A stretch of DNA of 64,000 bases. It comes from a virus. The notes under the pieces were generated by a model. That model worked only from the letters and a program-made list of their open reading frames with translations. It was not told the DNA's origin and made no database searches. Shown piece after piece: positions 48,529 to 63,638 of this stretch. The stretch's first letter is position 1. Every line of letters begins with the position of its first letter. The stretch spans positions 11,019 to 75,018 of the IMG/VR virus record IMGVR_UViG_3300013094_000033; one strand, 5' to 3'. A program made the position numbers and the translations under genes.

Positions 48529-50238
48529 TTAAAGTGCTGGGCCACCGGCACCAATGGCACCTGCAGCGCCTTGCTCGCCGGGTCCACTTACACCACCAGG
48601 CACTCCGCCACCTTCAACACCTGTGTCAGGTCCCAATGATTCTAAGTCAGATGTAATACCACCCGGGCTAATACCAACACTACGTGGGCTTGGTGCATCA
48701 GGGCTTGCAAGCTCAGTATCGCCGCGTTCTTCTGCCCATGCTTGTTCATTTTCACTGATTTCTTGTTCAGTCATTCCTAAATAACGCTTCATTAACCAAC
48801 GCTTACTAAAATAAGGCATAGGTTCTAGCTGTTGGAATGTAGCTATACGTGCACTATCAATGTCTGCTTGGCGATATTGTGCAAAGTTTTGTGGTTCATT
48901 AAATGTTAAATCAAATAATGATCCGTCAATATTAAAGCCTCTCCAACGCATAAACAGTTTAAATTCACTGTCTAACTTCTCAGCAATCATGCCTTGTAAA
49001 CGTTGGCAGTATTGGTTAAAGCGCCATTCTTGTATAAGAGCTGTACCAACGCGACCATCTGTGTATGCTTGGCTACCGTCATCAGCTGTAGTAGGCAAAT
49101 AACTGCTAGGAATACGCAAACCACGGAATAACTTGTTAGTAAAGAAGCGCAAATCAGTGATTTCACCTAGATTAGCACCACCGGGTAGCACATCTACACT
49201 AGAACCACGTGCATCTGCTGTTACAGGGAAGAAGTAATCTTCATTTGTACTTAATGGATTATAAGTAGCATCCATCATTGATGCATTTTGATTAGTTCCG
49301 CCACTCTGACTTGGTATACGACGTTGATGAATTTCGTTTTTGATACGTTCCACAAACGCCATAGCCAAGTGACTTGGCATGTTACCTACGTCAATTTTGA
49401 AGATACGACGTTCTGGAGCACGTTGCACACGGTAGATAATAATGCTATCTTCTAGCAATTCTTTTTGCTTAAAGACCTTAAAAATGTTCTCTAATACGCT
49501 GTTACCAAAGGGCCAATATACATCTAATCCCTCTGTTAAACTGATGTGTAAAACGTGTTCTGCGTTAATTGCAGCTTCATTTTTAGCGTGGCTAAAGCGT
49601 GAACCACCACCAAATGGGCTTTGTGGCTGTACATAAGCACCACTTGGGCCACCAGTTTGCGGGTGATTCATGTAAGTATCTGTAGTAGCAACCGCAGTAA
49701 CTGTTAGATTTTGGAAATTGGGGTTTAAGTCTTTGATCAAGTACTGCTCAGGCTTTTTACCTTCGCCTTCGTTAACAATAACTTTAGTAACTTTACTCAT
49801 TTCTGTCCACATGAGTTTAAAGTTTTCTGGATCACGAATAAACACTTGATCGCCGTATTTTATTACGTTACGCACAATCTTAAACATGCGTTTGTTAAAT
49901 TCATTAAGCGCAACCCACTGTTGCAGTTGTTCTTTAATAATGTTAACTTCGTTATCGCTAGGGTCTTCTTTAAATTTAATTCTGAAACTTGTGTGATTTT
50001 CTAAGTTCTTTTGGGTACAGAATTCAGCTAAAATGTCTAATGCAGCATTAACTTCTGAGTCCATATCCATTTGTTCGTACTGGTTATAACGCTCAACACG
50101 ATTTGGTTGACCAGTGTAAACTTCAGGTAATTGGCTTTGATAGTTGCGATAAGACGCATCAGGCAAACGCCCAGCACCTAGTGGACTAATGTTACTAGGT
50201 AGATTGTTGGTTTTAAAGTACTTTTTCCAGCCGGCCAT
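48529..50238 (-). CDS. gp20: Portal protein, T4 gp20-like
   Basis: LLEDSIIIYRVQRAPERRIFKIDVGNMP, EDYFFP and LFRGLRIPSS. Confidence 0.95.
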   Translation of the reverse strand: MAGWKKYFKTNNLPSNISPLGAGRLPDASYRNYQSQLPEVYTGQPNRVERYNQYEQMDMDSEVNAALDILAEFCTQKNLENHTSFRIKFKEDPSDNEVNIIKEQLQQWVALNEFNKRMFKIVRNVIKYGDQVFIRDPENFKLMWTEMSKVTKVIVNEGEGKKPEQYLIKDLNPNFQNLTVTAVATTDTYMNHPQTGGPSGAYVQPQSPFGGGSRFSHAKNEAAINAEHVLHISLTEGLDVYWPFGNSVLENIFKVFKQKELLEDSIIIYRVQRAPERRIFKIDVGNMPSHLAMAFVERIKNEIHQRRIPSQSGGTNQNASMMDATYNPLSTNEDYFFPVTADARGSSVDVLPGGANLGEITDLRFFTNKLFRGLRIPSSYLPTTADDGSQAYTDGRVGTALIQEWRFNQYCQRLQGMIAEKLDSEFKLFMRWRGFNIDGSLFDLTFNEPQNFAQYRQADIDSARIATFQQLEPMPYFSKRWLMKRYLGMTEQEISENEQAWAEERGDTELASPDAPSPRSVGISPGGITSDLESLGPDTGVEGGGVPGGVSGPGEQGAAGAIGAGGPAL

Positions 50239-52742: not shown

Positions 52743-53591
52743 ATGTCAAATTCAGTCGCAAATCCTTTGGCTAAACATTTTAGACAACCTGCATTGTATT
52801 TAAAATTGCCCAGTAATGGCCGTTGGTACCCCGAGGGTACATTGGATTTGCCAGTCACAGGCGAAATTCCAGTGTACCCAATGACTGCAAAAGATGAAAT
52901 AATGTTTAAAACACCAGATGCATTAATGAATGGTACCAGTACTATGGAAGTTATACAAAGTTGCTGTCCAAGTATTAAGAATGCCTGGAAAATGCCAGCA
53001 ATTGATATTGATCCAGTACTGATTGCTATTAGACTTGCTACGTACGGAAAAGAAATGGATTTTACCAGCGTGTGTCCACATTGTGGTACTAAGAATGAAA
53101 AAGCATTAGATTTAACATTCATGCTTGATAAAATTACACCAGCTGATTGGGGTACACCTGTAGAAGTTGACGGATTACAAATTATCTTAAAGCCACAAAC
53201 CTACGAAGATTTTAACAAAAACAGTATTATTAACTTTGAAGAACAACGCATTATGCAGTTAGTTCAAAGTGACGAAATGTCTGCAGATGAAAAGACTGAA
53301 CGTTTTAACGATATGTTTAAACGGTTAATCGAAACTGGTGTTAACCAAGTAAGCAAAAGCATTGCGGGTATTAAAATCGAAGATGGGTCAGTGGTTGATA
53401 ATCCAGATTTTATCAAAGAATTCTTAGAAAACTGCGAACGTCATGTTTGGGAATCTATCAAAGAGAAACTAGATGAGATCAAACGTGTTAACAGCGGATA
53501 CAACAATATAGACATGACCTGCGAAAATGAAGAATGTGCAAAAATATTCACAACACCATTTGTATTTGAACAGTCAAGTTTTTTCGCATAA
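52743..53591 (+). CDS. gp26: Baseplate hub/tail assembly chaperone, T4 gp26-like
   Basis: YLKLPSNG, PMTAKDE, LIAIRLATYG, CPHC and a second C..C pair; SD GGAG. Confidence 0.75.
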   Translation: MSNSVANPLAKHFRQPALYLKLPSNGRWYPEGTLDLPVTGEIPVYPMTAKDEIMFKTPDALMNGTSTMEVIQSCCPSIKNAWKMPAIDIDPVLIAIRLATYGKEMDFTSVCPHCGTKNEKALDLTFMLDKITPADWGTPVEVDGLQIILKPQTYEDFNKNSIINFEEQRIMQLVQSDEMSADEKTERFNDMFKRLIETGVNQVSKSIAGIKIEDGSVVDNPDFIKEFLENCERHVWESIKEKLDEIKRVNSGYNNIDMTCENEECAKIFTTPFVFEQSSFFA

Positions 53592-53596
53592 GGCTT

Positions 53597-53815
53597 TTGA
53601 CATTAAACAATGAAGAGATTGTCGAACTACTTGAATCATTCGACAGAGACTCAAAAGCCCTTAAAAAAGATCTCTTATCTATGTGTTGGTATATGAGAGG
53701 TAGTATATCTTATGATGATGCTGTAATGCTCTGTTACGAAGATCGAAGAATTATAAGCAAGATTATTAAAGATAACTTAGAAACAACAGAGAAGTCAGGT
53801 TTGCCATTCTTTTAA
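53597..53815 (+). CDS. gp51-like small hub assembly protein, possibly expressed by -1 frameshift from gp26
   Basis: CWYMRG.ISY.D....EDRRII pattern; no ATG with a strong SD; -1 frame open from the slippery TTTTTTC at 53579-53585. Confidence 0.65.
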   Translation: MTLNNEEIVELLESFDRDSKALKKDLLSMCWYMRGSISYDDAVMLCYEDRRIISKIIKDNLETTEKSGLPFF

Positions 53816-54245
53816 GATCTCTAACGAGATCTGTTGTTTCACTTCGTTCACAACATTATTTTTAATAAGAAGCGAAGCGATTAATGTTTCATCCAGATTG
53901 TTTGGTCACACTTTGCCCGCACAGGGCAAAGAGAGCTTCATCCGAGTTACCTCAGTCACTTAGCGTTACAGCATTACAGAGGCGGTTGTCCGGTACCTCG
54001 AGCTGTGTCTTTACACAACGGCGGGTTTATATCTATACGCTAACATACATATAAACCGTGTGCTATCACTAGCACGTCATTTTAGCTTTATATTTCTTTT
54101 CAAACAATCAAACCGTAGCATTTTACGATCTTCGTCCTGTCAAGGATAGTGATTGAGTACTCTTTACAGCGAAGAGATTTCCATCCCTGTGATCCGGGAT
54201 CCAGGTATAGGGCACACGAACTTAGCCTGTGCTAGCATTACTGTT
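53815..54245 (-). ncRNA. Putative large structured non-coding RNA of unknown class
   Basis: ORF-free; at least ten hairpins; GNRA loops (GUGA, GUAA) read on the minus strand; 7-bp pseudoknot; locally GC-rich. Confidence 0.7.
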
Positions 54246-54257
54246 GATTTATTTGCC

Positions 54258-54695
54258 TTAATAAAGTTTAAAAAGATTTTGGTAGTGTAAATGGAATTGT
54301 ATAAAGTCTTTGTCAAATAAATCTATAGTAATTGTGCCGTTTTTATCCCAGAAGGTAGTGTTTATTAAGTTTTTGTCGCAGTCAGTTTTATACGAACATA
54401 AATGGAACAGTCGATCTGTATCCCAATCTATGCCACCAAACTTGAACTGCTTGAGTTGTACATATTTATTTTCTGTAATCTTATTGTCATATATTTTTGT
54501 ATCTGTGCCATAATTTTTGTTTGAAAGTGTTAAAGTTAATGTATTTGGTAGTGTAATTTCGGTTTTAATTGTAAGTTGGTCTTTGTTATTATCTTTAAAT
54601 GTGCCTAAAAATTGATTTCTTGATTTAATTTCAACATCCATTGTGCCATTGCAATAGCCAAATTCTAAAACAAATTCTAGTTTAGTTGTTTTCAT
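54258..54695 (-). CDS. Hypothetical protein coupled to the B12-radical SAM gene; start 54695
   Basis: ATGA overlap with the stop of the upstream gene; beta-rich, 145 aa. Confidence 0.65.
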   Translation of the reverse strand: MKTTKLEFVLEFGYCNGTMDVEIKSRNQFLGTFKDNNKDQLTIKTEITLPNTLTLTLSNKNYGTDTKIYDNKITENKYVQLKQFKFGGIDWDTDRLFHLCSYKTDCDKNLINTTFWDKNGTITIDLFDKDFIQFHLHYQNLFKLY

Positions 54696-56068
54696 ACTAC
54701 TGTAAATCCACATTCAACAGAACATATTTGTTTTAATTCTTGATAGTACTGTTGTCGTTGCTCATATGAGATGTTTAAATTTTGATTAACCCACTCTACT
54801 CTATCTTTTTTAGTGTGAATAGGAGTAAGCATCATGTTTTTTCCGCCTTGCTCTAGTTTAGTACCGGGCAAAACATCTAACGGGGATAAAAATACTTCTA
54901 TCACGCTGTTGTTAGCATACTGCCAGCGATCCCTGAACCATTGCTTGGTAAATTCGTAATCTTCTAGTGTTTCTGTTGGGTACGCTACAATTAACAATAA
55001 AGTCTGTGTAATTCCGTATTTTTGTCCCATTGCCAAATGATAATCAATATCATCGTTGTTAAACGATTTACCTAGATCATTTCTCACATGTTGTATAACA
55101 CTTTCTACACCCATGAATATTCTAGCATTAGTTGCCTGCAACTGTTGCCAAATTAATTCAGGATGTTGGCTAGCAGGTCTTACAATAAAAGATCCTTCCC
55201 AGCTGATCTGTTCACTTCTATACTTTCCTCGGTTGTATTCTGTCATCAACGACAGTAATTTTTTAAATTCTTTGAGATTGCCATTGGAAATACTGCTTCT
55301 AAAGTCAAAATGCAATATGTCGTGCTTTTCGTATTGGTGCATCATTTGCTCAAATATTTTATCAGCAGTCATTGACTGATACTTTTTCCAAAATGCAACA
55401 ACATCACAAAATTCACAGTCTCTTACACACCCTTTACTATCCATAATGGGAATAGTAGGTTCCTTGTACCAGAACCAGTTATAATCACTGTAGTCGGGTG
55501 CAGGCAAACTGTTTAGATCTGTAACAGGAATCCAGTTTTCAGAGTTAATGCCAGGGTATGTTAAATTGCCTTTAACGTATTCCACAAAGGCTTGTTCGCC
55601 GTCACCGATAATGTAGTCGTCAATTAATCCTAATTCTAGCAAACGATCCCTGTATGTTATATCTGTTACGTTAGTTTTAAGTCCCGGGCCGCCAACTACT
55701 ATACGAGCACTGGCATTTCTATGTCTAATCGCAGCACATAGCCATGCTGTAAACACCTGACAATCAAAACAAAACAAACTAAGTGCTATTATACTGGGAT
55801 TGTAGGCTAATATGCGATCAGCACAGTACTCGATTATTCTTCCCACGTCCTCAACAATCAAGTCATCGACTTTTTGTTTGTAGAAAAATTTAAGTATTTT
55901 ATCTTTATGAAAGTGCCCGGAAACTTTTGTAACAACTTCAGCATTCAAATCTAATGTAGTACTGTTGATGCCATGTTGAGCTAAGGCTGCTTTTAACACA
56001 GCTGGAGCTGCCATTGGTCGATTAACATCAACATAAGGCACCGAAGCAATAACTATAGTTTCCTGCAT
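54692..56068 (-). CDS. Cobalamin-binding radical SAM protein (class B methyltransferase-like)
   Basis: N-terminal B12-binding-like domain (APAVLKAAL..DLN..IVVGGP..GDGE); SKGCVRDCEFC; GVES; YPTETLED. Confidence 0.88.
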   Translation of the reverse strand: MQETIVIASVPYVDVNRPMAAPAVLKAALAQHGINSTTLDLNAEVVTKVSGHFHKDKILKFFYKQKVDDLIVEDVGRIIEYCADRILAYNPSIIALSLFCFDCQVFTAWLCAAIRHRNASARIVVGGPGLKTNVTDITYRDRLLELGLIDDYIIGDGEQAFVEYVKGNLTYPGINSENWIPVTDLNSLPAPDYSDYNWFWYKEPTIPIMDSKGCVRDCEFCDVVAFWKKYQSMTADKIFEQMMHQYEKHDILHFDFRSSISNGNLKEFKKLLSLMTEYNRGKYRSEQISWEGSFIVRPASQHPELIWQQLQATNARIFMGVESVIQHVRNDLGKSFNNDDIDYHLAMGQKYGITQTLLLIVAYPTETLEDYEFTKQWFRDRWQYANNSVIEVFLSPLDVLPGTKLEQGGKNMMLTPIHTKKDRVEWVNQNLNISYEQRQQYYQELKQICSVECGFTVV

Positions 56069-56497
56069 TTAAATTTTGTTTATAATGTGTGATCCGTGTA
56101 CTCTGACACTAATCTGTCCGTTGTAATAATCTGTTGATTCTAAAACTCGGTATCGAAATTGTTCTCTGGCTTCTATGTAACTGCACTCAGCTTTTGATTT
56201 ACATAAAAATAAAATTTCTCTTTGAAATTTATCGCGCCCCAGTGTTTCAACATCCTTGTTTAGTTCTATGTTTGAGCCATAATATGTTTGCCAGTCGCTG
56301 TCTATTTTGCTTCTAATCTTCTTTTTCTTTTTAGTGCCGTTTTTGAGTTTTACTGTTTTGTATGTTGTTTTTGAAAATTTAGCTAGTTTTTTTCCAATAT
56401 ACTTTCGACCAGTGACTAAATTTGTTATCAAGTAAACAAATCCAACACAGTCGTCGGGTAGCGATTCTATTAAGGTGTTTTCGTAAAGCCAGCTCAT
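56069..56497 (-). CDS. Stand-alone GIY-YIG nuclease-like protein (no separate C-terminal DNA-binding domain)
   Basis: GFVYLITN..KYIGKK, YYGS, F.REIL..E..YYN; Lys-rich insert KLKNGTKKKKKIRSK. Confidence 0.85.
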   Translation of the reverse strand: MSWLYENTLIESLPDDCVGFVYLITNLVTGRKYIGKKLAKFSKTTYKTVKLKNGTKKKKKIRSKIDSDWQTYYGSNIELNKDVETLGRDKFQREILFLCKSKAECSYIEAREQFRYRVLESTDYYNGQISVRVHGSHIINKI

Positions 56498-57747
56498 GCA
56501 TAGTAGTTATCCCAACCATCCAATAGAAAGTAATTTTTAATTTCGGGATCAGCAAACCAATTCCATTGATCTAATTTTTTATACAATAAATCAGTTAATT
56601 CTGTATCTCCTGGCATGTTCAGCATACCAATAACATTACGCATTTCATTGTCTGCGTGTAACTTTTGATGTTCGGGTTCCCTGCCGTTTGATTCAATACC
56701 GGCAGAATCTGAAAATTCCCACAATTTAAACTTTTCAAGCAATCGTTGTTTGATATCTGCGGGCAAGTTTTTAACCTGCATTTCTGGGGGATAGTCTAAG
56801 GTATTACTTAAAATACCTAAGTTATTATCTAATGCCCATTGCAGGGTTTGATCGTATGTGTGTACGCTTAACGCACTGATAACAGTACGTAGAGTTACAT
56901 AATAATTCGGTGCTTGAAATTGCTGTATCTTTTTAATATTATCAATGACTGCCTGGGTACTTGACCCTGCTCGTATAAAATCGTTAAGTTTCGACGGCGA
57001 TTCTAAGCTGATACCCACGTCTACATGGCGGAATTGCTGTAGTTTTGTGAATATTTCTTCACGATAAATTGTTCCGTTAGTACTGAAGCCAAAGTAAGTG
57101 TTGGTCTTGCCTGCAGCAATTAGTCTATCAATTAGCTCTTCAAATCTGTAGTTTAAAAATGGTTCACCACCAATAACGTGTACAAATTTTAATTCTGGAG
57201 CGGCAATAATACTTTCTACCAGATGATCCCAGGCCTGCTGATTATCAGTCCAATTAAGTCTGACGGGATTAGCTTTTTCCATAAACGCAATTTTACTGCT
57301 ATAACTGGGTTCGCAGGTCCTGCAATATAAGTTACACTCGTTACCTAAACTAAAGTGAAAACTGCGAATATTAACTTCGGATAAGTTTGAATTTTGTAAA
57401 GTTTTATAGTCAGGACTGTGTGCAAATGTTATGCCATACATATGATTATTATGTATACGGCTTTTTAAATTTTCTCGTATGCGCTTACTGCTACCGCCTC
57501 CGGATTCAGCAACATAACAAGATCCACATTTTGTATCCGGTATGCCTATTAGTTTACTATAACGATCAGCATTCATAGCAGTATGTGTCATCCAGTCCGG
57601 AATAGACATTGTCTGTATGTTGTATTTGTCGGCTAAATTAGTACCAGTAATCCAATTACGTTGCATACCGCAGGTATGATAACTGCCGTCGGCATTGATG
57701 TGGACTTCAAACCACGGTACTGTACAAAAAACGTTACGTTGCTTCAA
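56494..57747 (-). CDS. Radical SAM protein with N-terminal twitch-like domain
   Basis: CNLYCRTC, IGGEPF and STNGT; N-terminal FCTVPW..DGSYHTC..KCGSC. Confidence 0.9.
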   Translation of the reverse strand: MKQRNVFCTVPWFEVHINADGSYHTCGMQRNWITGTNLADKYNIQTMSIPDWMTHTAMNADRYSKLIGIPDTKCGSCYVAESGGGSSKRIRENLKSRIHNNHMYGITFAHSPDYKTLQNSNLSEVNIRSFHFSLGNECNLYCRTCEPSYSSKIAFMEKANPVRLNWTDNQQAWDHLVESIIAAPELKFVHVIGGEPFLNYRFEELIDRLIAAGKTNTYFGFSTNGTIYREEIFTKLQQFRHVDVGISLESPSKLNDFIRAGSSTQAVIDNIKKIQQFQAPNYYVTLRTVISALSVHTYDQTLQWALDNNLGILSNTLDYPPEMQVKNLPADIKQRLLEKFKLWEFSDSAGIESNGREPEHQKLHADNEMRNVIGMLNMPGDTELTDLLYKKLDQWNWFADPEIKNYFLLDGWDNYYA

Positions 57748-58736
57748 TTACAATCCTGTTGACATTTTACTCTACATACTGGTAATGCACCAGTTGCAAA
57801 TGTTCCTATTAGTTCGTCCCAACATGGGTCTTCTAATATTTCTTTTATACTTCTTGTGTGTATGCTTATACGGTCTGCATACTTTTTAACAAATAAATTC
57901 TGTTGATATCCAGTATTAAACCATCCACAAGGATATACGTGTCCTTCAATTGTAACATTAATTTCTCTGTTACCGTTAAGACATTTTGCCCACTTGTGTT
58001 GCTTCCTATTCAAATTGTAAGTAAAAGGATCATCACGTCTAAATACAACTTTTTCATGGTAGTGTGCATGCCCTTCAACATGACTAGGATCCACAGGCTT
58101 TAACGGATCCACCCCATTGACTAGATATCGATTATCAAACTTTGAACTGCGAACAGGTTGAAAAGTGTCGCAGCCTGAATTTTTAGCGATATCAGCGAGT
58201 TTGAGCATCTTGTCTTCGTTAAATTTAAAATAGATAGTACTCCAATTAATATAACAAGTACCAACAGAACGTAAATCACGTATGCCATCTAATATACTTT
58301 CAAAATCGCTGTCGACTCTATATAGATTGTTGGATTCATTGTCCCATCCGTCTATGCTAAAAATAACGCCGTCGTTGTCATCTAACAAAGAACCTAACTC
58401 GTGCCACCAGTGGGATTTTTTATAACTGCCATTGGTAATAAGTCTAATTCGAGTACTGGAATTTTCTTTAACATATCTAACAATGTCAAGAAATTCAGTA
58501 GCATATATACTATCACCATGATGCCCGCAAAACAACAGATATTTGATCTGTGATAATACCGCAGGTGTAAAAGCGTTCTTAAACACCGCTAAGGAGATTT
58601 CTCTATTTAAAAATGGTAGTAACAATTCCGTGCGCGGACATCTGGGGCACTTAAGCACACACTTACTGCTAACTTCAACTTGTACTATATCAAGATTGAA
58701 GGATGTCGATATCGGTGTTGTAACTTGTAAATCCAT
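57744..58736 (-). CDS. Radical SAM protein with C-terminal SPASM/twitch domain (start uncertain)
   Basis: CVLKCPRC, ITNGS and FSIDG; C-terminal KC..EGHVYPC..SIKEIL..CRVKC. Confidence 0.88.
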   Translation of the reverse strand: MDLQVTTPISTSFNLDIVQVEVSSKCVLKCPRCPRTELLLPFLNREISLAVFKNAFTPAVLSQIKYLLFCGHHGDSIYATEFLDIVRYVKENSSTRIRLITNGSYKKSHWWHELGSLLDDNDGVIFSIDGWDNESNNLYRVDSDFESILDGIRDLRSVGTCYINWSTIYFKFNEDKMLKLADIAKNSGCDTFQPVRSSKFDNRYLVNGVDPLKPVDPSHVEGHAHYHEKVVFRRDDPFTYNLNRKQHKWAKCLNGNREINVTIEGHVYPCGWFNTGYQQNLFVKKYADRISIHTRSIKEILEDPCWDELIGTFATGALPVCRVKCQQDCN

Positions 58737-60465
58737 TTTCTTTGACCACGTGCAATGTGTTGTTAACTCTACCTGCTAGCTCATCTTTGTGTGACACAAG
58801 CCAAATACTTTTGTTTGCATCACGACTCATCTTTTTCAGGATAGCTAGCGAGTTTTCAACTCCACTACTATCCATACCGCTGTCAACTAACTCATCAATG
58901 AATAACAAGTTAATAGGCTGATATAGACTTTCCCACACATCACGGAATGCCCACGATAAACTTAAAATCAAACGATTGCGTTCACCACGTGACAGGTTAT
59001 CAAAGTCTAAATCTCTACCTAGTTCGGTAATGGCTACAGTTAAGTCGTTGTTAAATTTAACTGTGTGTGGTAAGCCAATACGATCTAAGTATTGTCCCAG
59101 GCGGGCGTTTAAGTAACTTAAATTCTGATCAATAATACGTTTACGTATAAAACTATCTTTGTTTGTTAATAACTTTAACAAGAACTCTTGATGGTCTTTG
59201 AGATTGGTTAACTCGTTCATCACAGAGTAATCAATTTCTTCCACTGCTTGCTCTTGCATGTCTTGAATTTGTTCTGCATAAGGATCTTGTTCAGTTTGCT
59301 TTGCAGTCAGTTGTGCTAGCAAACTGCCCATGCTACTACGATGCTCAAATGCGTCCGACTCTTTGTCATAGTATACTTTTGGCTGTGCACCTAATTCACC
59401 TAATGCTTTAAGTGCGTCAGTATGCTCTATCCATTGTGTATTAGTTGACAATGCTTGTAATGCAGCCTCTTGTAGTGCTTTGTGCTTGCTTTCTAGCAAT
59501 GCTTGTTGCTTTTCATCGTGGAAGTCTTGACCACACGCATGACACTTATGATCTTCTAAACTGGCAATTTCGTCTTTTAGCTGATTAATCAGTTTTTCTT
59601 CACGCTTCTCATCTAGCTCACATCGTTTAATCCATGCAGTACAGTCAGCAATTGCTTTACGTTTTGTATTGTAATCAGTTAATGCTGTATGTGCCAGCAA
59701 TTCAGATTCGATATCTAATTGACTTAATTCATTATAAGCTGACTGCAACGATTCAATGTCTTCGTTGTGCTTTTTAAGCCAAATACTTTGTTTACGTTTT
59801 AGATTTTCAATTTGTTCTTCAATGCGCTTGTTAGCATCACCTACGGCTTTAATTCTAAATTCTTCTTGGCTGATTGCATCTTTAGTAGTTTTAATTAAAT
59901 CTTTAAGAGCGTCAGCCTTTTCACTTAGTAATGTAATACCTAAAAGTTGCTCAATGATTGTACGTTGGTCATTGGCTTTTAATGCTAAGAAGGGCTCTGT
60001 ATATGTATTAAGAGCCACAACATGCTTAAACATGTCATGACTCATACCTAACATTCTTTCTATTTCTGCTTGCGTTTCTCTGCTGTCACCTTGTGCTTCG
60101 TCGGTGATTTCTTTTTCTACGTCACCAACGAAGAATTTCATAACACCAGGTTTACGCCCACGTTCAATACGATATTCAATACCGTCTTTTTCGAAATCAA
60201 TAGTAACCATCATACCTTTGGTATTGGTTTTATTAATTAAGTTGTCTTTTTTGATATTAGTTAGCGCATTACCATAAAGAGCATAGGAAAGAGCATTAAT
60301 AATTGTTGTCTTTCCTGTGCCATTACGTGCACCAGAATCATCGCCGCCTAAGTCTAGATTTTCACCTAAGACAAGAGTTAGGTCACGTCTATCAAAATTG
60401 ACAGCCTGGGTAGTTGCACCCACGCTCATAAAGTTACGAACAGTCAGCGTTTTTATTTTAAACAT
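58690..60465 (-). CDS. gp46: Recombination endonuclease ATPase subunit, gp46 (SbcC/Rad50-like)
   Basis: NFMSVG, Walker A NGTGKTT, Zn-hook CHACG, signature LSRGE, Walker B LLFIDE and His-loop VSH. Confidence 0.95.
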   Translation of the reverse strand: MFKIKTLTVRNFMSVGATTQAVNFDRRDLTLVLGENLDLGGDDSGARNGTGKTTIINALSYALYGNALTNIKKDNLINKTNTKGMMVTIDFEKDGIEYRIERGRKPGVMKFFVGDVEKEITDEAQGDSRETQAEIERMLGMSHDMFKHVVALNTYTEPFLALKANDQRTIIEQLLGITLLSEKADALKDLIKTTKDAISQEEFRIKAVGDANKRIEEQIENLKRKQSIWLKKHNEDIESLQSAYNELSQLDIESELLAHTALTDYNTKRKAIADCTAWIKRCELDEKREEKLINQLKDEIASLEDHKCHACGQDFHDEKQQALLESKHKALQEAALQALSTNTQWIEHTDALKALGELGAQPKVYYDKESDAFEHRSSMGSLLAQLTAKQTEQDPYAEQIQDMQEQAVEEIDYSVMNELTNLKDHQEFLLKLLTNKDSFIRKRIIDQNLSYLNARLGQYLDRIGLPHTVKFNNDLTVAITELGRDLDFDNLSRGERNRLILSLSWAFRDVWESLYQPINLLFIDELVDSGMDSSGVENSLAILKKMSRDANKSIWLVSHKDELAGRVNNTLHVVKENGFTSYNTDIDILQS

Positions 60466-60500
60466 CTATAGAGTATAGCAGAGTTGTTACTTAAGTTCAA
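60466..60500 (-). promoter_or_regulatory. Sigma70-like promoter giving a leaderless gp46 mRNA
   Basis: TTGAAC-N17-TATACT with TG extension, then 6 nt to the ATG; no SD. Confidence 0.6.
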
Positions 60501-61443
60501 TGTTATTGGTTTTCAAGTACGTGATATAGTTTTCACCATATGTCTTGTAAAACTTTTTAAATTCATGAATTGATGTATGCCATGGCAAATATCCAATTGG
60601 ATCCAGTGCTTCGTCCATTTTATGTGTGTTTATCACTTCAACAATGTCTCGTTGAATTTGATTTTTTACATTGTCTGGTAAATTTGAACTTGTAGCAAAC
60701 ACCATGAATGGGTTCAACATTGTTAATTTTTTACCTGTAAATTCTGATAGTGTAGGAACATCAGGAAAACGTGAATCACGATGATCAGACACAACAGCAA
60801 TATAATTTAATTTGCCGGCAGCCAATAACTGTCTTGTTGATGCAACAGTAGTAAAACTATACGTCATTAATCCATTTGACAAATCAGTAAACCATTGGCC
60901 ATAGTCTCTATAAGGTACATGAACTCCTGCAACATCAAATGCTTTACTTAGTACGATTCCATCTACGTGTGCTTGGCTTCCAATTGCCCATGAACCATAA
61001 GCAGGATTCTTTTGTAAGGCTGTTTTAAATTGATCTAAATTTTTAATATTTGGTGGTGTAACCAACATCATGTCAGCTTTGATAAATCCCATAAATGGAT
61101 CTATAGGCTTTAATAAATCCAATTGATTGGTAACAACTGGATACACAGCTAAATTATCTACTGTACCAAAGTAAATAGTTGCTTCAGCTGGTTCTTTAGC
61201 AAACGCAACCAACGATACAATACCATTGCCCCCGGGTCGATTGTCGATTATAACAGATGTTTTCCATTTTTCTGACAAATCTTGTGCTACTTTTCTAAGT
61301 GCATTGTCGGGCCCGGACCCCACCGGCATTGAACTAACAAATTTAACAGTTGCTGGCGGAGTCCATGCATCTTGTGCTTGCACACATGCTCCTACGAGTC
61401 CTAACATTAATAATGCTAGAGTTTTGTTGATAATTGATTTCAT
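60487..61443 (-). CDS. Bug/TctC family tripartite tricarboxylate transporter substrate-binding protein
   Basis: Signal peptide; PVGSGPD..R, IDNRPGGNG, YGSWAIGS..H, HVPYR and R..FPDVPTL.E motifs. Confidence 0.88.
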   Translation of the reverse strand: MKSIINKTLALLMLGLVGACVQAQDAWTPPATVKFVSSMPVGSGPDNALRKVAQDLSEKWKTSVIIDNRPGGNGIVSLVAFAKEPAEATIYFGTVDNLAVYPVVTNQLDLLKPIDPFMGFIKADMMLVTPPNIKNLDQFKTALQKNPAYGSWAIGSQAHVDGIVLSKAFDVAGVHVPYRDYGQWFTDLSNGLMTYSFTTVASTRQLLAAGKLNYIAVVSDHRDSRFPDVPTLSEFTGKKLTMLNPFMVFATSSNLPDNVKNQIQRDIVEVINTHKMDEALDPIGYLPWHTSIHEFKKFYKTYGENYITYLKTNNIELK

Positions 61444-62621: not shown

Positions 62622-63638
62622 TTATAAGTTCCTATATATGTCTAGCAACAGGTCTGGGTTATATTGTTTACTGTCAATTGTGTTTAGTTGACTATAAACA
62701 ATTTGATCTACACTTTCAAATTCTATGTTGCCTTGAATTTCATATTCTGTTAAATCAGTTACTTTAGCCGGAATAAGTGTAATCTCTCTTAAGCCGTAAG
62801 TGCTGATAAATGTTTCTTTAATAAATGTTGCTTCTTCGTAGCTGATATCAATATCTAAGTTAACACGTACATGCATATTCGGTTGCAACATTGCTTCGGT
62901 ATGCTTTAATACATCACTTAATTGGAAAACGCGATACAAGGGTTGGTTGGGCCATGCATAATACTCGGGTGGCTTGCCCCACTCTAATATGGTAAGTCCG
63001 CGATCGTCGTCTCCAGCATCTGCGTAATTGTGCGGAAAGCAATTTCCAATGTAGGTGATATTCTTTTGTGTTTGTCTTTTGTGAAAATGTCCGGTATAGA
63101 CGTGTTCAAAATTTGAAAAATGTTCTCTGCGTATCTCACCATGTTCGGGCATGGCTACCATAGCATTCATTAAGTATCCGGGCAGTTCGAAGTGCCCAAA
63201 CATATATTTACCTTTTAATTTAGGAATTCTCTTATGATCGTCAGAAACCAACCAAGGAGCAATAACCACATCGCCACTGCTAAACCAGTCGTTACATATT
63301 TGTACATTAGGGAGATGTTTGGCCCACTCCACGCTTTGTACGTCTCGTTTGTCGCGATAATACAAGTCATGATTACCAGGAATAAAATATACACAATCAA
63401 AATTGTCATTTAAATGCTCTAGTCCTTTAAGTGAGTACCCTAGTGTGAGTACATTAATTGATGCCCTATTGTTGTGATAATCTCCTAAAAAGAAACACGT
63501 CTCACATCCTTCCTCTTTTGCCTTACTAGTAGCCCACTTTATAAAGTTAAGACAATCTTCATTGTGTTGTGTGCTATTTGACTTTAAGCCAAAGTGAATG
63601 TCTGTTATCAACATTGCCTTTTTGAATAAATTACTCAT
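62622..63638 (-). CDS. gp47: Recombination endonuclease nuclease subunit, gp47 (SbcD/Mre11-like)
   Basis: Metallophosphoesterase motifs TDIHFG, LGD, GNHD, GHFE and GHFH. Confidence 0.95.
   Translation of the reverse strand: MSNLFKKAMLITDIHFGLKSNSTQHNEDCLNFIKWATSKAKEEGCETCFFLGDYHNNRASINVLTLGYSLKGLEHLNDNFDCVYFIPGNHDLYYRDKRDVQSVEWAKHLPNVQICNDWFSSGDVVIAPWLVSDDHKRIPKLKGKYMFGHFELPGYLMNAMVAMPEHGEIRREHFSNFEHVYTGHFHKRQTQKNITYIGNCFPHNYADAGDDDRGLTILEWGKPPEYYAWPNQPLYRVFQLSDVLKHTEAMLQPNMHVRVNLDIDISYEEATFIKETFISTYGLREITLIPAKVTDLTEYEIQGNIEFESVDQIVYSQLNTIDSKQYNPDLLLDIYRNL

What the first reader, a model, noticed from the sequence alone, without database searches (positions are those of the whole stretch)
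53815..54245. About 430 nt of ORF-free, densely structured, pseudoknotted RNA-like sequence of no class I recognise
This is the only large intergenic block in an otherwise wall-to-wall coding window. It is GC-rich: 32 of 60 bases are G+C at 53941-54000, in an AT-rich genome. Read 5'->3' on the minus strand, the visible helices are GCACA/TGTGC (54232-54212); CCTG-GATC/GATC-CAGG; CTCTT/AAGAG; a three-way junction CAATCA/TGATTG enclosing TCCT-TGAC-AGGA and CGTA/TACG; GTGCTA-GTGA-TAGCAC; a 9-bp GGTTTATAT/ATATAAACC stem; TGTGT-AAAG-ACACA; GAGG-TAC-CGG-ACAA-CCG-CCTC; GAG-GTAA-CTC; an 8-bp CTTTGCCC/GGGCAAAG stem; TGTTGT/ACAACA; and AGATCTC/GAGATCT. The loop TTAGCGT (54043-54037) pairs perfectly over 7 bp with ACGCTAA (53966-53960), forming a pseudoknot. 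The 5' GCACAGG can alternatively pair with the 3' CCTGTGC (53925-53919). GNRA loops (GUGA, GUAA) appear on the minus strand. I see no tRNA, tmRNA, RNase P or group I/II intron signatures. Inference: this is a large phage-encoded ncRNA (ribozyme, RNP scaffold or guide), possibly undescribed.
Basis: partly seen in the sequence, partly recalled or inferred. Interest (0 to 1): 0.9.

Follow-up and report, generated by a model that had tools for sequence, protein, structure and literature searches.

The report
Full-length Polynucleobacter-1 twin-box phage RNA
The gene-free stretch encodes a real, knotted non-coding RNA of about 430 bases in an uncultured lake T4-like phage; its first third is an orphan RNA motif catalogued in 2010, its last third is uncatalogued and carries one 7-letter word twice, and its job is still unknown.

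Summary
Window 54244-53815 (minus strand) is an ORF-poor, GC-richer block that folds better than shuffles (z -4.1).

It is not of an unknown class. Bases 54237-54102 are a full-length match to Rfam RF01718, Polynucleobacter-1 (117 bits, cut-off 37).

Uncatalogued parts:
- a 5' leader pseudoknot;
- a third pseudoknot;
- a 3' module with two stem-loops, each carrying the word GGAUGAA (53943-53937 and 53894-53888).

Support from relatives:
- In 44 relatives, 95 modelled pairs are 94.6% paired, and 46 show changes on both sides.
- In 80 of 80 distinct relatives the two words are identical, across at least 10 different words. They switched at least 9 times on the tree, at the tempo of ordinary base pairs.

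The RNA normally follows a 142-aa SegE-like GIY-YIG gene. Here two genes (1.8 kb) lie between them. Cultured phages have the nuclease without the RNA, so the nuclease is a neighbour, not a partner.

Function is unknown. My leading guess, about 1 in 5, is that one word pairs with the DNA copy of the other (R-loop or primer). This scan has already found the same family many times on other DNA.

The parts
53815..54244 (-). Whole RNA element, from the leader strand of pseudoknot PK1 to the terminal hairpin (about 430 nt)
   Evidence: Homology to 61 viral contigs over 345-417 nt at 70-81% identity. Alignments A1 and A2. No conserved reading frame.
54102..54237 (-). 5' domain: full-length match to Rfam RF01718 Polynucleobacter-1. 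Holds P1 54232-54212, P2 54205-54186, conserved CACAGGGAUGGAAA 54191-54178, P3 54176-54160, and P4 54155-54105 enclosing P4a and P5.
   Evidence: cmscan 117.3 bits against a gathering score of 37, model positions 1-141 of 141. Covariation in P1, P2, P4 and P5.
54240..54244 (-). PK1 5' strand: leader ACAGU, pairing with GCUGU in the P3 loop (54170-54166)
   Evidence: Columns 3-7 with 84-88 of A2: pair 3:88 is AU in 21 and GC in 20 sequences. The window and L065 carry the compensated ACAGU/GCUGU where others have ACGGU/GCCGU. This lies outside the Rfam model.
53960..54076 (-). Central domain. P6 54076-54059. P7 54056-54024, with loop UUAGCGU 54043-54037 pairing with ACGCUAA 53966-53960 (PK2). 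UUG 54018-54016 pairing with the P9 loop CAA 53988-53986 (PK3). P8 54006-54002 with 53972-53968. P9 53999-53979 (GAGGUACCGGACAACCGCCUC).
   Evidence: helices 8-14. PK2 has 7 of 7 pairs with changes on both sides. PK3 pairs 260:303 (UA 32, CG 12) and 261:302 (GC 36, AU 8). Pair 292:310 is UA 28, AU 16. Coordinates.
53937..53959 (-). Twin-box unit 1: GUGAC (53959-53955), variable linker, AACUC, box 1 GGAUGAA (53943-53937)
   Evidence: The box is identical to box 2 in 80 of 80 distinct relatives.
53911..53931 (-). P11 hairpin CUUUGCCC-UGUG-GGGCAAAG between the two units
   Evidence: helix 16. Stem kept with a variable loop in all relatives.
53888..53911 (-). Twin-box unit 2: GUGUGAC (53911-53905), variable linker, AAUCU, box 2 GGAUGAA (53894-53888)
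53815..53856 (-). 3' hairpins. UGUUG-UGA-AC-GAA-GU-GAA-CAACA (about 53855-53833), a short-loop hairpin with tandem G-A. AGAUCUC-GUUA-GAGAUCU (53832-53815), terminator-like; it overlaps the stop of the convergent 72-aa ORF.
   Evidence: Both hairpins are kept with different stem sequences in relatives (alignment A1, columns about 530-600).
56069..56497 (-). 142-aa SegE-like GIY-YIG nuclease gene, the usual immediate upstream neighbour of the RNA
   Evidence: PF19835, E 3.9e-33. 69-82% identical to the ORF that ends just before the RNA in 44 of 46 relatives. Homologous to PSSM2_218.
54258..56068 (-). Window-specific 1.8-kb insert between nuclease gene and RNA: a B12-binding radical-SAM gene (54692-56068) and a 151-aa ORF of no family (54258-54713)

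Best explanation
Shown: the stretch is a stand-alone gene for a full-length member of the Polynucleobacter-1 RNA family, read from the minus strand of a lake T4-like phage.

It has three parts:
- a 5' domain (the Rfam model), locked by a leader pseudoknot;
- a central domain with two more pseudoknots;
- a 3' module of two stem-loops that each show the same 7-nt word after a fixed pyrimidine triplet (CUC before box 1, UCU before box 2).

Inferred: it is made as the tail of the early DNA-metabolism transcript (gp47, gp46, then the GIY-YIG gene). It ends at the 3' hairpins, because in relatives a T4 late-promoter core follows those hairpins and precedes the next gene.

It is neither a leader of the next gene nor a dedicated partner of the GIY-YIG nuclease. 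The nuclease genes beside it look like homing-type genes parked next to a conserved RNA gene.

Mechanism (inferred, low certainty): the two words are coupled to each other directly, not through a separate reader. They switch at the tempo of ordinary base pairs, and mixed states are never seen, even for G/A changes that a reader would tolerate.

The simplest direct coupling that demands identity is that one word, as RNA, pairs with the template DNA strand of the other. That would hold an out-of-register RNA-DNA hybrid (R-loop) usable as a replication or recombination primer, as ColE1 RNA II does. I give this step about 0.2. The identity and anatomy I give about 0.9.
For: - Rfam match of 117 bits.
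- Homologues in 61 of 119 scanned viral contigs over 345-417 nt.
- 95 modelled pairs: 94.6% paired against 84.1% in shuffles; 46 pairs with changes on both sides; covariation score 0.352 against 0.154 (shuffles) and 0.05-0.08 (slid partners).
- The frequent non-Watson-Crick pairs are G-U on this strand (7:84 UG in 41 sequences, 283:346 GU in 29, 419:440 GU in 39), which would be C-A on the other strand.
- No conserved reading frame; gap lengths are mostly not multiples of 3.
- Twin words identical in 80 of 80 distinct sequences, with at least 10 words. At least 9 switches on a 44-sequence tree; position 1 switched 7 times, against 4-12 for Watson-Crick pairs of the same RNA.
- The Polynucleobacter chromosome copy in the 2010 file also has twin words (AGCGAAA twice).
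- No excess of the complementary word within +/-3 kb (39 found, 42.9 +/- 6.7 expected), and no third covarying column in the RNA.
- ATAAATA lies 64-111 nt after box 2 in 39 of 43 relatives (background 0.035). It is missing only where the next gene is convergent, as in the window.
- Independence from the nuclease: inserts of 0.15-1.3 kb in 11 of 64 loci and 1.8 kb here. L065 has a PDDEXK nuclease instead. Four complete cultured phage genomes with the GIY-YIG homologue lack the RNA. P-SSM2 gene 218 is followed directly by gene 219.
Against: - No transcript data: no RNA run holds the sequence, so the ends, the processing and expression itself are inferred.
- Nothing shows an R-loop or origin activity.
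- A 7-nt hybrid is short, and the fixed CUC/UCU difference would interrupt a longer one.
- An origin model does not explain why three pseudoknots and two alternative 5' domains are conserved.
- The boxes sit in what look like apical loops of two similar hairpins, an arrangement that also suits a dimeric reader.
- The stems of the two box hairpins are only moderately supported (helices 15, 17 and 18: 78-98% paired, few double changes).
Confidence: 0.7

Rival explanations
1. Shared-reader RNP: the RNA is a scaffold, and its two similar stem-loops present the same word to two copies of one trans factor (a dimeric phage or host protein, or a repeated site on another RNA).
For: Pseudo-symmetric 3' module (GUGAC, linker, AAYYY, word) duplicated about 55 nt apart. 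The elaborate conserved fold with three pseudoknots is typical of RNPs.
Against: Position 1 of the word flipped G/A at least 7 times among close relatives, yet no mixed G/A state occurs in 80 distinct sequences. A reader that accepts both letters should allow mixed states, and a co-varying reader needs three coordinated changes each time. No complementary word is enriched within +/-3 kb. In the 64-kb window the complementary orientation occurs once, against about 6 sites of either orientation expected by chance.
Confidence: 0.2
2. Guide or cofactor RNA of the neighbouring minimal GIY-YIG nuclease, giving an RNA-programmed nuclease.
For: The RNA starts right after the nuclease stop codon in 53 of 73 close loci. 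The protein is essentially a bare catalytic domain of 142 aa.
Against: The window has 1.8 kb and two genes between them, and 11 of 64 loci have inserts. L065 has a PDDEXK nuclease at that place. The nuclease family is in 500 cultured phage records, and four whole genomes checked have no such RNA. P-SSM2 gene 218 has none. No target-like complement of the words was found.
Confidence: 0.05
3. Cis-regulatory leader or riboswitch of the downstream gene; Weinberg et al. (2010) score the motif as probably cis-regulatory in their Table 1.
For: In most relatives a same-strand gene follows within about 150 nt.
Against: The downstream genes fall into at least 11 unrelated clusters. In the window, L105, L042 and L005 the next gene is on the other strand. 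Hairpins and a late-promoter core separate the RNA from the next gene in 39 of 43 relatives.
Confidence: 0.03
4. A DNA-level element only (iterons, recombination sites whose 7-bp cores must match, or a replication origin) with no functional RNA.
For: Identity of two direct 7-bp words is what crossover cores of site-specific recombination require. The genes nearby act on DNA (gp46/47, nucleases).
Against: 46 helix pairs show compensatory changes, including long-range pseudoknots, and G-U pairs are tolerated on one strand only. That is selection on a folded single strand. No recombinase gene is nearby. Excision of a 47-65-bp segment would need an implausibly small DNA circle (prior knowledge, not tested here).
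Confidence: 0.04
5. Core of a group I or II intron, or another ribozyme, associated with the homing endonuclease gene.
For: GIY-YIG genes ride in T4 group I introns. The RNA has the size and pseudoknots of an intron core.
Against: No intron or ribozyme family reached E <= 5 in the sensitive Rfam scan. The flanking genes are not halves of one gene and differ between loci.
Confidence: 0.02

Closest known systems
Polynucleobacter-1 RNA motif (Rfam RF01718; Weinberg et al. 2010, Genome Biol 11:R31, PMC2864571)
   Same: The 5' 136 nt match the model end to end at 117 bits. The central hairpins and the 7-bp pseudoknot match the 'tail' and 'tailpknot' annotation of the authors' raw alignment. There is the same association with a PSSM2_218-like gene, shown here to be a GIY-YIG nuclease (37% identity, E 2e-20). 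Function is unknown in both.
   Different: The Rfam model stops at 141 nt. The 2010 paper found no instance in a purified phage and did not annotate the leader pseudoknot, PK3 or the twin-box module, although the twin words are visible in its flanks, including the Polynucleobacter chromosome copy. Here the RNA sits in a T4-like phage contig and is separated from the nuclease gene by two inserted genes.
ColE1 RNA II pre-primer (Masukata and Tomizawa 1990; recalled from memory, not read here)
   Same: A several-hundred-nt folded transcript in which an upstream RNA segment must match a downstream segment, because it pairs with the template DNA there. That would explain selection for identity of two words.
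   Different: There is no evidence of hybrid formation, RNase H processing or origin activity here. The words are 7 nt and lie in hairpin modules, and the fold has three pseudoknots. This is a resemblance of logic only, not membership.
T4 segB in the tRNA gene cluster (free-standing GIY-YIG homing endonuclease beside structured RNA genes; recalled from memory)
   Same: A Seg-type GIY-YIG gene lies next to conserved RNA genes. This fits the nuclease being a selfish or domesticated neighbour.
   Different: The nuclease here is 66-100% conserved among relatives and nearly always present, unlike sporadic Seg genes. Cleavage of the RNA gene in nuclease-free phages is untested.
Large orphan phage-associated RNAs (GOLLD, ROOL)
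   Same: Large, ornate and phage-borne, with function unknown or only recently approached.
   Different: No Rfam match to them. This RNA is smaller and has the twin-word feature.

Membership tests
Polynucleobacter-1 RNA (RF01718) | Covariance-model score above the curated gathering score over the whole model | tested here: met
   117.3 bits against 37, model positions 1-141 of 141, E 8e-25.
Polynucleobacter-1 RNA (RF01718) | Helices P1, P2, P3 and the multistem junction (P4 enclosing two hairpins), with the conserved CACAGGGAUGGAA stretch | tested here: met
   cmscan alignment. P1, P2, P4 and P5 covary in 44 relatives. Note that the relatives were fished with the 15-mer TCACAGGGATGGAAA, so its invariance in A2 is by construction. 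Loci fished by protein (L121, L165) vary in it.
Polynucleobacter-1 RNA (RF01718) | Optional 'tail': further hairpins and a 7-bp pseudoknot, as in the authors' raw alignment | tested here: met
   P6-P9 and PK2 are present. PK2 has 7 of 7 pairs with changes on both sides. Tail annotation seen in supplementary file 101.
Polynucleobacter-1 RNA (RF01718) | Lies downstream of a GOS11034 / PSSM2_218-like gene | tested here: inconclusive
   PSSM2_218 is a homologue of the window's GIY-YIG gene. In 53 of 73 close loci the RNA follows it directly. In the window it lies 1.8 kb further on, after two other genes.
RNA-guided nuclease system (guide RNA plus effector) | Obligate co-occurrence of effector and RNA | tested here: not met
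   Nuclease without RNA in Melnitz, phiM12, P-HM1, ACP17 and after PSSM2_218 in P-SSM2. RNA next to a different nuclease in L065.
RNA-guided nuclease system (guide RNA plus effector) | A variable guide segment with matching targets | tested here: not met
   The only fast-changing segments are the twin words. Their complement is not enriched nearby or in the window.
Group I / group II introns | Match to intron core models; interruption of a host gene | tested here: not met
   No hit at E <= 5. The flanking genes are unrelated and variable.
R-loop / primer RNA of a replication origin (ColE1 RNA II type, T4 oriF/oriG type) | Persistent RNA-DNA hybrid and DNA synthesis starting at the RNA 3' end | not testable with these tools
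   Only indirect evidence: identity coupling of the two words with base-pair-like tempo, purine-rich words, and neighbouring replication and recombination genes.

The most novel reading that the evidence does not exclude
The twin words are kept identical because one of them, as RNA, hybridises to the template DNA strand of the other. On this reading the whole knotted RNA is a structured pre-primer that seeds a persistent, out-of-register R-loop, making it a conserved, RNA-defined replication or recombination start site of lake and marine T4-like phages and of the bacterial islands that carry it. It would be a phage counterpart of ColE1 RNA II.
Probability: 0.15. Interest if true: 0.85.

Novelty: new member of a known kind. 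Interest (0 to 1): 0.5.

Why it matters
Polynucleobacter-1 has been an orphan motif since 2010, and I found no follow-up paper: full-text searches return only the original paper and two incidental mentions of the Rfam accession.

This window shows three things:
- The catalogued 141 nt are only the head of an RNA of about 430 nt with three pseudoknots.
- It is carried by T4-like phages. More than 588 viral contigs carry the linked nuclease gene, and 64 of 73 of the closest loci that could be judged hold the RNA.
- It can stand apart from the nuclease gene.

Two words kept identical, rather than complementary, is a rare kind of covariation, and it gives a sharp bench test by swapping one box or both. 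If the words mark an RNA-DNA hybrid, this would be a sequence-defined origin or primer RNA in an abundant group of environmental phages. If they mark a reader, an unknown RNP remains to be found.

For annotation: Rfam's model should be extended. The 'NAD synthetase' label on the GIY-YIG gene in phage records looks wrong.

Tried and rejected
- Rfam for the 3' 290 nt: only sub-threshold chance-level hits (cow-rumen-2 at 20.9 bits, snR3 at 19.6). 'Type B' relatives have no Rfam hit at all.
- tRNA or tmRNA: none.
- blastn against 50,697 cultured phage records: no match.
- Expression: no RNA holder listed among public runs; 20 DNA runs, mostly lake-water metagenomes, hold it.
- Bacterial genomes: the first pattern gave 0 hits. 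The second gave 4 MAG contigs, and the three long enough to judge also carry the GIY-YIG gene upstream (the fourth is a 1.7-kb fragment), so they look like mis-binned phage DNA.
- Complement of the twin word as a cis partner: not enriched within +/-3 kb, and no third covarying column.
- Rolling-circle or concatemer ORF idea: the box-to-box unit is 47-65 nt with no preference for multiples of 3 and no conserved open frame.
- Box-box Watson-Crick pairing, or a palindromic kissing dimer (AUCURGAU): broken by the GCAU, ACAU, GAC and GCG words.
- CsrA-type GGA sponge: GGA is lost in the AGAU and GCAU words.
- Protein coding: open stretches on the opposite strand fall in three different frames in different relatives.
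- Own promoter: no sigma-70-like site upstream of the RNA. The AAATAAAT just upstream in the window is not conserved.
- Literature: no paper links GIY-YIG genes with a structured phage RNA.
Full report
**What is there.** The window is a fragment of an uncultured T4-like myophage. The record is an IMG/VR virus contig of 75 kb, estimated 22% complete. It carries:
- a T4-type portal gene (48529-50238);
- a gp26-like baseplate hub gene (52743-53591, plus strand);
- gp46/gp47-like genes (58690-60465 and 62622-63638);
- a SegE-like GIY-YIG gene (56069-56497).

DNA runs that hold the sequence are mostly lake-water metagenomes. Between the stop of a minus-strand 151-aa ORF (54258) and the stop of a plus-strand 72-aa ORF (53815) lies a block with only 30-56-aa ORFs. 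Its G+C is 0.40-0.45 against 0.27-0.37 around it, and its fold is better than all 100 shuffles (z -4.1).

**Known part.** A scan of the whole window against Rfam gives one hit above threshold: 54237-54102, minus strand, RF01718 Polynucleobacter-1, 117.3 bits (cut-off 37), covering model positions 1-141 of 141. The rest (54101-53815) has no family; the best is cow-rumen-2 at 20.9 bits against a cut-off of 66.

The only paper found that describes the motif is Weinberg et al. 2010. Its supplement says that the motif lies mostly downstream of GOS11034 / PSSM2_218-like genes, that its '3' half is not always detected', and that it was not seen in any purified phage. The authors' raw Stockholm file goes further than the Rfam model. 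It annotates a 'tail' of extra hairpins and a 7-bp pseudoknot ('tailpknot'). It also prints flanks in which the rest of the RNA can be read, including the copy in the Polynucleobacter chromosome NC_009379. The family is known but orphan, and its catalogue entry is truncated.

**Relatives and structure.** An exact 15-mer from the motif found 119 viral contigs. Of these, 61 (46 distinct) align with the window's minus strand over 345-417 nt at 70-81% identity, far beyond the Rfam model. Alignment A2 (44 sequences, 446 columns) gives an RNAalifold structure of 75 pairs, 33 of them compensated. Mutual information exposes three pseudoknots:
- PK1: leader RCGGU with the P3 loop GCCGY. The window has the compensated ACAGU/GCUGU, at 54244-54240 with 54170-54166.
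- PK3: UUG at 54018-54016 with the CAA loop of P9 at 53988-53986.

I counted my full model of 95 pairs on A2:
- 94.6% of cells are paired, against 84.1 +/- 0.3% in shuffles.
- 46 pairs have changes on both sides, against 32.5 +/- 2.5.
- The covariation score is 0.352, against 0.154 in shuffles and 0.05-0.08 with slid partners.
- 0 of 500 shuffles reach any observed value.

PK2 has compensatory changes at all seven pairs. The tolerated non-standard pairs are G-U on this strand, which fixes the minus strand as the RNA sense. Open stretches on the opposite strand fall in three different frames in different relatives, and most gaps are not multiples of three, so the region does not code for protein.

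Two 3' hairpins close the element: a hairpin with a short GAA-type loop and tandem G-A pairs, and a terminator-like stem at 53832-53815. Both keep their shape with different stem sequences in relatives.

**Twin boxes.** The last third is a duplicated module: GUGAC, a variable linker, AACUC, a 7-nt word, then the P11 hairpin, then GUGUGAC, a linker, AAUCU and the same 7-nt word. In the window the word is GGAUGAA, at 53943-53937 and 53894-53888.
- A search that did not force identity found the two words identical in 48 of 48 distinct sequences.
- An HMM-based alignment of 100 distinct 3' domains gave 80 of 80 identical where both words are resolved.
- The 80 fully resolved sequences carry seven words: GGAUAAU, AGAUAAU, GGAUGAU, GGAUGAA, GCAUAAU, AGAUGAA, AGAUGAU. 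AGAUCAA and ACAUGAA come from the regex scan. AGACGAA is seen whole only in box 1 of one sequence whose box 2 is cut off. AGCGAAA occurs in the Polynucleobacter copy.
- The three pyrimidines in front differ in a fixed way (CUC against UCU).
- On a tree built without the box columns, the word changed at least 9 times. Its first letter flipped G/A 7 times, and both boxes changed together every time. Watson-Crick pairs of the same RNA changed 4-12 times on that tree.

The boxes thus behave like two partners of one contact, except that the rule is identity rather than complementarity.

**What the boxes are not.**
- They do not pair with each other or with a third column of the RNA.
- The complementary word is not enriched within 3 kb (39 found, 42.9 +/- 6.7 expected) or in the window.
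- The box-to-box unit is 47-65 nt with no multiple-of-three preference, so a concatemer reading frame is out.
- Palindromic kissing and GGA-sponge ideas fail on the GCAU, ACAU and AGAU words.

**Relation to the nuclease.** In 44 of 46 distinct relatives the ORF ending just before the RNA is a 141-146-aa protein 69-82% identical to the window's GIY-YIG gene at 56069-56497. That gene is homologous to PSSM2_218 (37% identity, E 2e-20), which identifies Weinberg's 'GOS11034' neighbour as a SegE-type GIY-YIG nuclease.

Fishing by the protein instead of the RNA found at least 588 viral contigs. Of the 73 closest loci with enough flank, 64 have the RNA downstream: 53 directly, and 11 after inserts of 0.15-1.3 kb. 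About twenty of these carry a different, uncatalogued 5' domain joined to the same central and twin-box parts ('type B').

Several facts argue that the nuclease is a neighbour, probably a homing-type gene parked beside a conserved RNA gene, and not an RNA-dependent enzyme:
- In this window, 1.8 kb with a B12-binding radical-SAM gene and a 151-aa ORF lie between nuclease and RNA.
- In the window's nearest relative, L065, a PDDEXK nuclease gene takes that place.
- The nuclease family occurs in 500 cultured phage records.
- The complete genomes of Melnitz, phiM12, P-HM1 and ACP17 have neither the Rfam motif nor the 3' domain. P-SSM2 gene 218 abuts gene 219.

**Transcription unit.** No sigma-70-like promoter precedes the RNA. 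It sits at the end of the gp47-gp46-...-GIY-YIG gene string. In 39 of 43 relatives the T4 late-promoter core ATAAATA lies 64-111 nt after box 2, just behind the last hairpin and before the next gene (background 0.035). The four exceptions, including the window, are exactly those where the next gene is convergent. The downstream genes belong to at least 11 unrelated clusters. So the RNA is not a leader of the next gene. It is most likely the 3' end of the early operon transcript, possibly processed. Expression could not be checked: no RNA run holds the sequence.

**How it may work.** The fold and the identity coupling are shown; the function is inferred. A separate reader, whether protein or nucleic acid, that accepts both G and A at the first position should allow mixed states, and none occurs. 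A co-varying reader would need three coordinated changes, at least nine times over.

A direct two-partner contact that demands identity arises when one word meets a copy of the other's complement. That means the template DNA strand (an out-of-register RNA-DNA hybrid, the logic of ColE1 RNA II) or a nascent complementary strand (template switching). In favour of this:
- The words are purine-rich.
- The genes around act in replication and recombination.
- T4 itself starts early replication from R-loops (textbook knowledge, not tested here).

I give this reading about 0.2, and a shared dimeric reader about the same. Two earlier notes of this scan proposed the origin idea. I reuse it, and add the tempo comparison and the mixed-state argument. 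Against it:
- 7 nt is short for a hybrid.
- The fixed CUC/UCU triplets would interrupt a longer hybrid.
- The model leaves the three pseudoknots and the exchangeable 5' domain unexplained.

**Verdict.** This is a real RNA and a typical full-length member of a known but orphan family, with an uncatalogued 3' module. The scan has reported the same family many times on other DNA, so this instance adds detail rather than a new kind. The details it adds:
- separation of the RNA from the nuclease gene;
- a different nuclease as neighbour in the closest relative;
- the finding that the pseudoknot was already in the 2010 file;
- identification of PSSM2_218 as the GIY-YIG gene;
- the late-promoter boundary after the RNA;
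- the base-pair-like tempo of the twin words.

Noticed in passing
window 54692-58736 and 60487-61443: Three radical-SAM genes (54692-56068 with a B12-binding domain; 56494-57747; 57744-58736) and a TctC-family solute-binding gene (60487-61443) are interleaved with gp46/gp47 and the GIY-YIG gene. Relatives have only a small ORF of about 100 aa between gp46 and the nuclease gene. This looks like window-specific auxiliary cargo. TctC ('Bug') proteins are most expanded in Burkholderiales, a weak hint at the host.
   Followed up: partly
window 54258-54713 (-): The 151-aa ORF directly upstream of the RNA has no Pfam or PHROG family (only a sub-threshold OB-fold hit at 18 bits). It has no homologue upstream of the RNA in any relative.
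   Followed up: partly
L125, L126, L128, L132, L153, L156, L167, L168, L180, L182, L184, L186, L188, L190, L197 (about 190 nt after the GIY-YIG stop): 'Type B' relatives: the same central (GGUACCGGUCAACCGCC) and twin-box parts joined to a different 5' domain that matches no Rfam family. The 3' half is therefore the more widely conserved part of the RNA, contrary to the 2010 remark that the 5' part is the conserved one.
   Followed up: partly
L065:4127-4642: The window's nearest relative has a PDDEXK_15 phage endonuclease gene (E 1e-25) instead of the GIY-YIG gene right before the RNA. Two unrelated nuclease families at the same spot suggest a homing-endonuclease landing site.
   Followed up: partly
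GIY-YIG homologues in RefSeq phage records (e.g. L209:26712-27149, PSSM2_218; PHROG 447): The small GIY-YIG protein is widely annotated as 'NAD synthetase'. Pfam places it in SegE_GIY-YIG (E 4e-33), and it keeps the GIY...YIG, Arg, Glu and Asn motifs. The label looks like a propagated error.
   Followed up: partly
L202, L203 (Haliscomenobacter MAG), L201 (Flavobacteriales MAG), L204 ('Bifidobacterium' MAG): Four MAG contigs carry the RNA. In L202, L203 and L204 the GIY-YIG gene lies directly upstream; L201 is a 1.7-kb fragment that shows only the RNA. They look like T4-like phage contigs binned into bacterial genomes; one MAG holds two different copies.
   Followed up: partly
window 54149-54133 (A2 columns 107:120 and 108:119): In hairpin P4a, two neighbouring pairs swap between [A-C, U-A] (UAUCC...GGAC) and [A-U, C-A] (UACCC...GGAU), with 24 and 20 sequences and no other combination. 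This is a coupled non-canonical A-C covariation that travels with the loop type (UUNACA or GNRA).
   Followed up: no
A2 columns 369 and 429 (window 53948 and 53899): The base five positions before each box is also usually the same in both units (AA 25, GG 16, UU 1, two exceptions). The three pyrimidines between it and the box are fixed as CUC and UCU.
   Followed up: no
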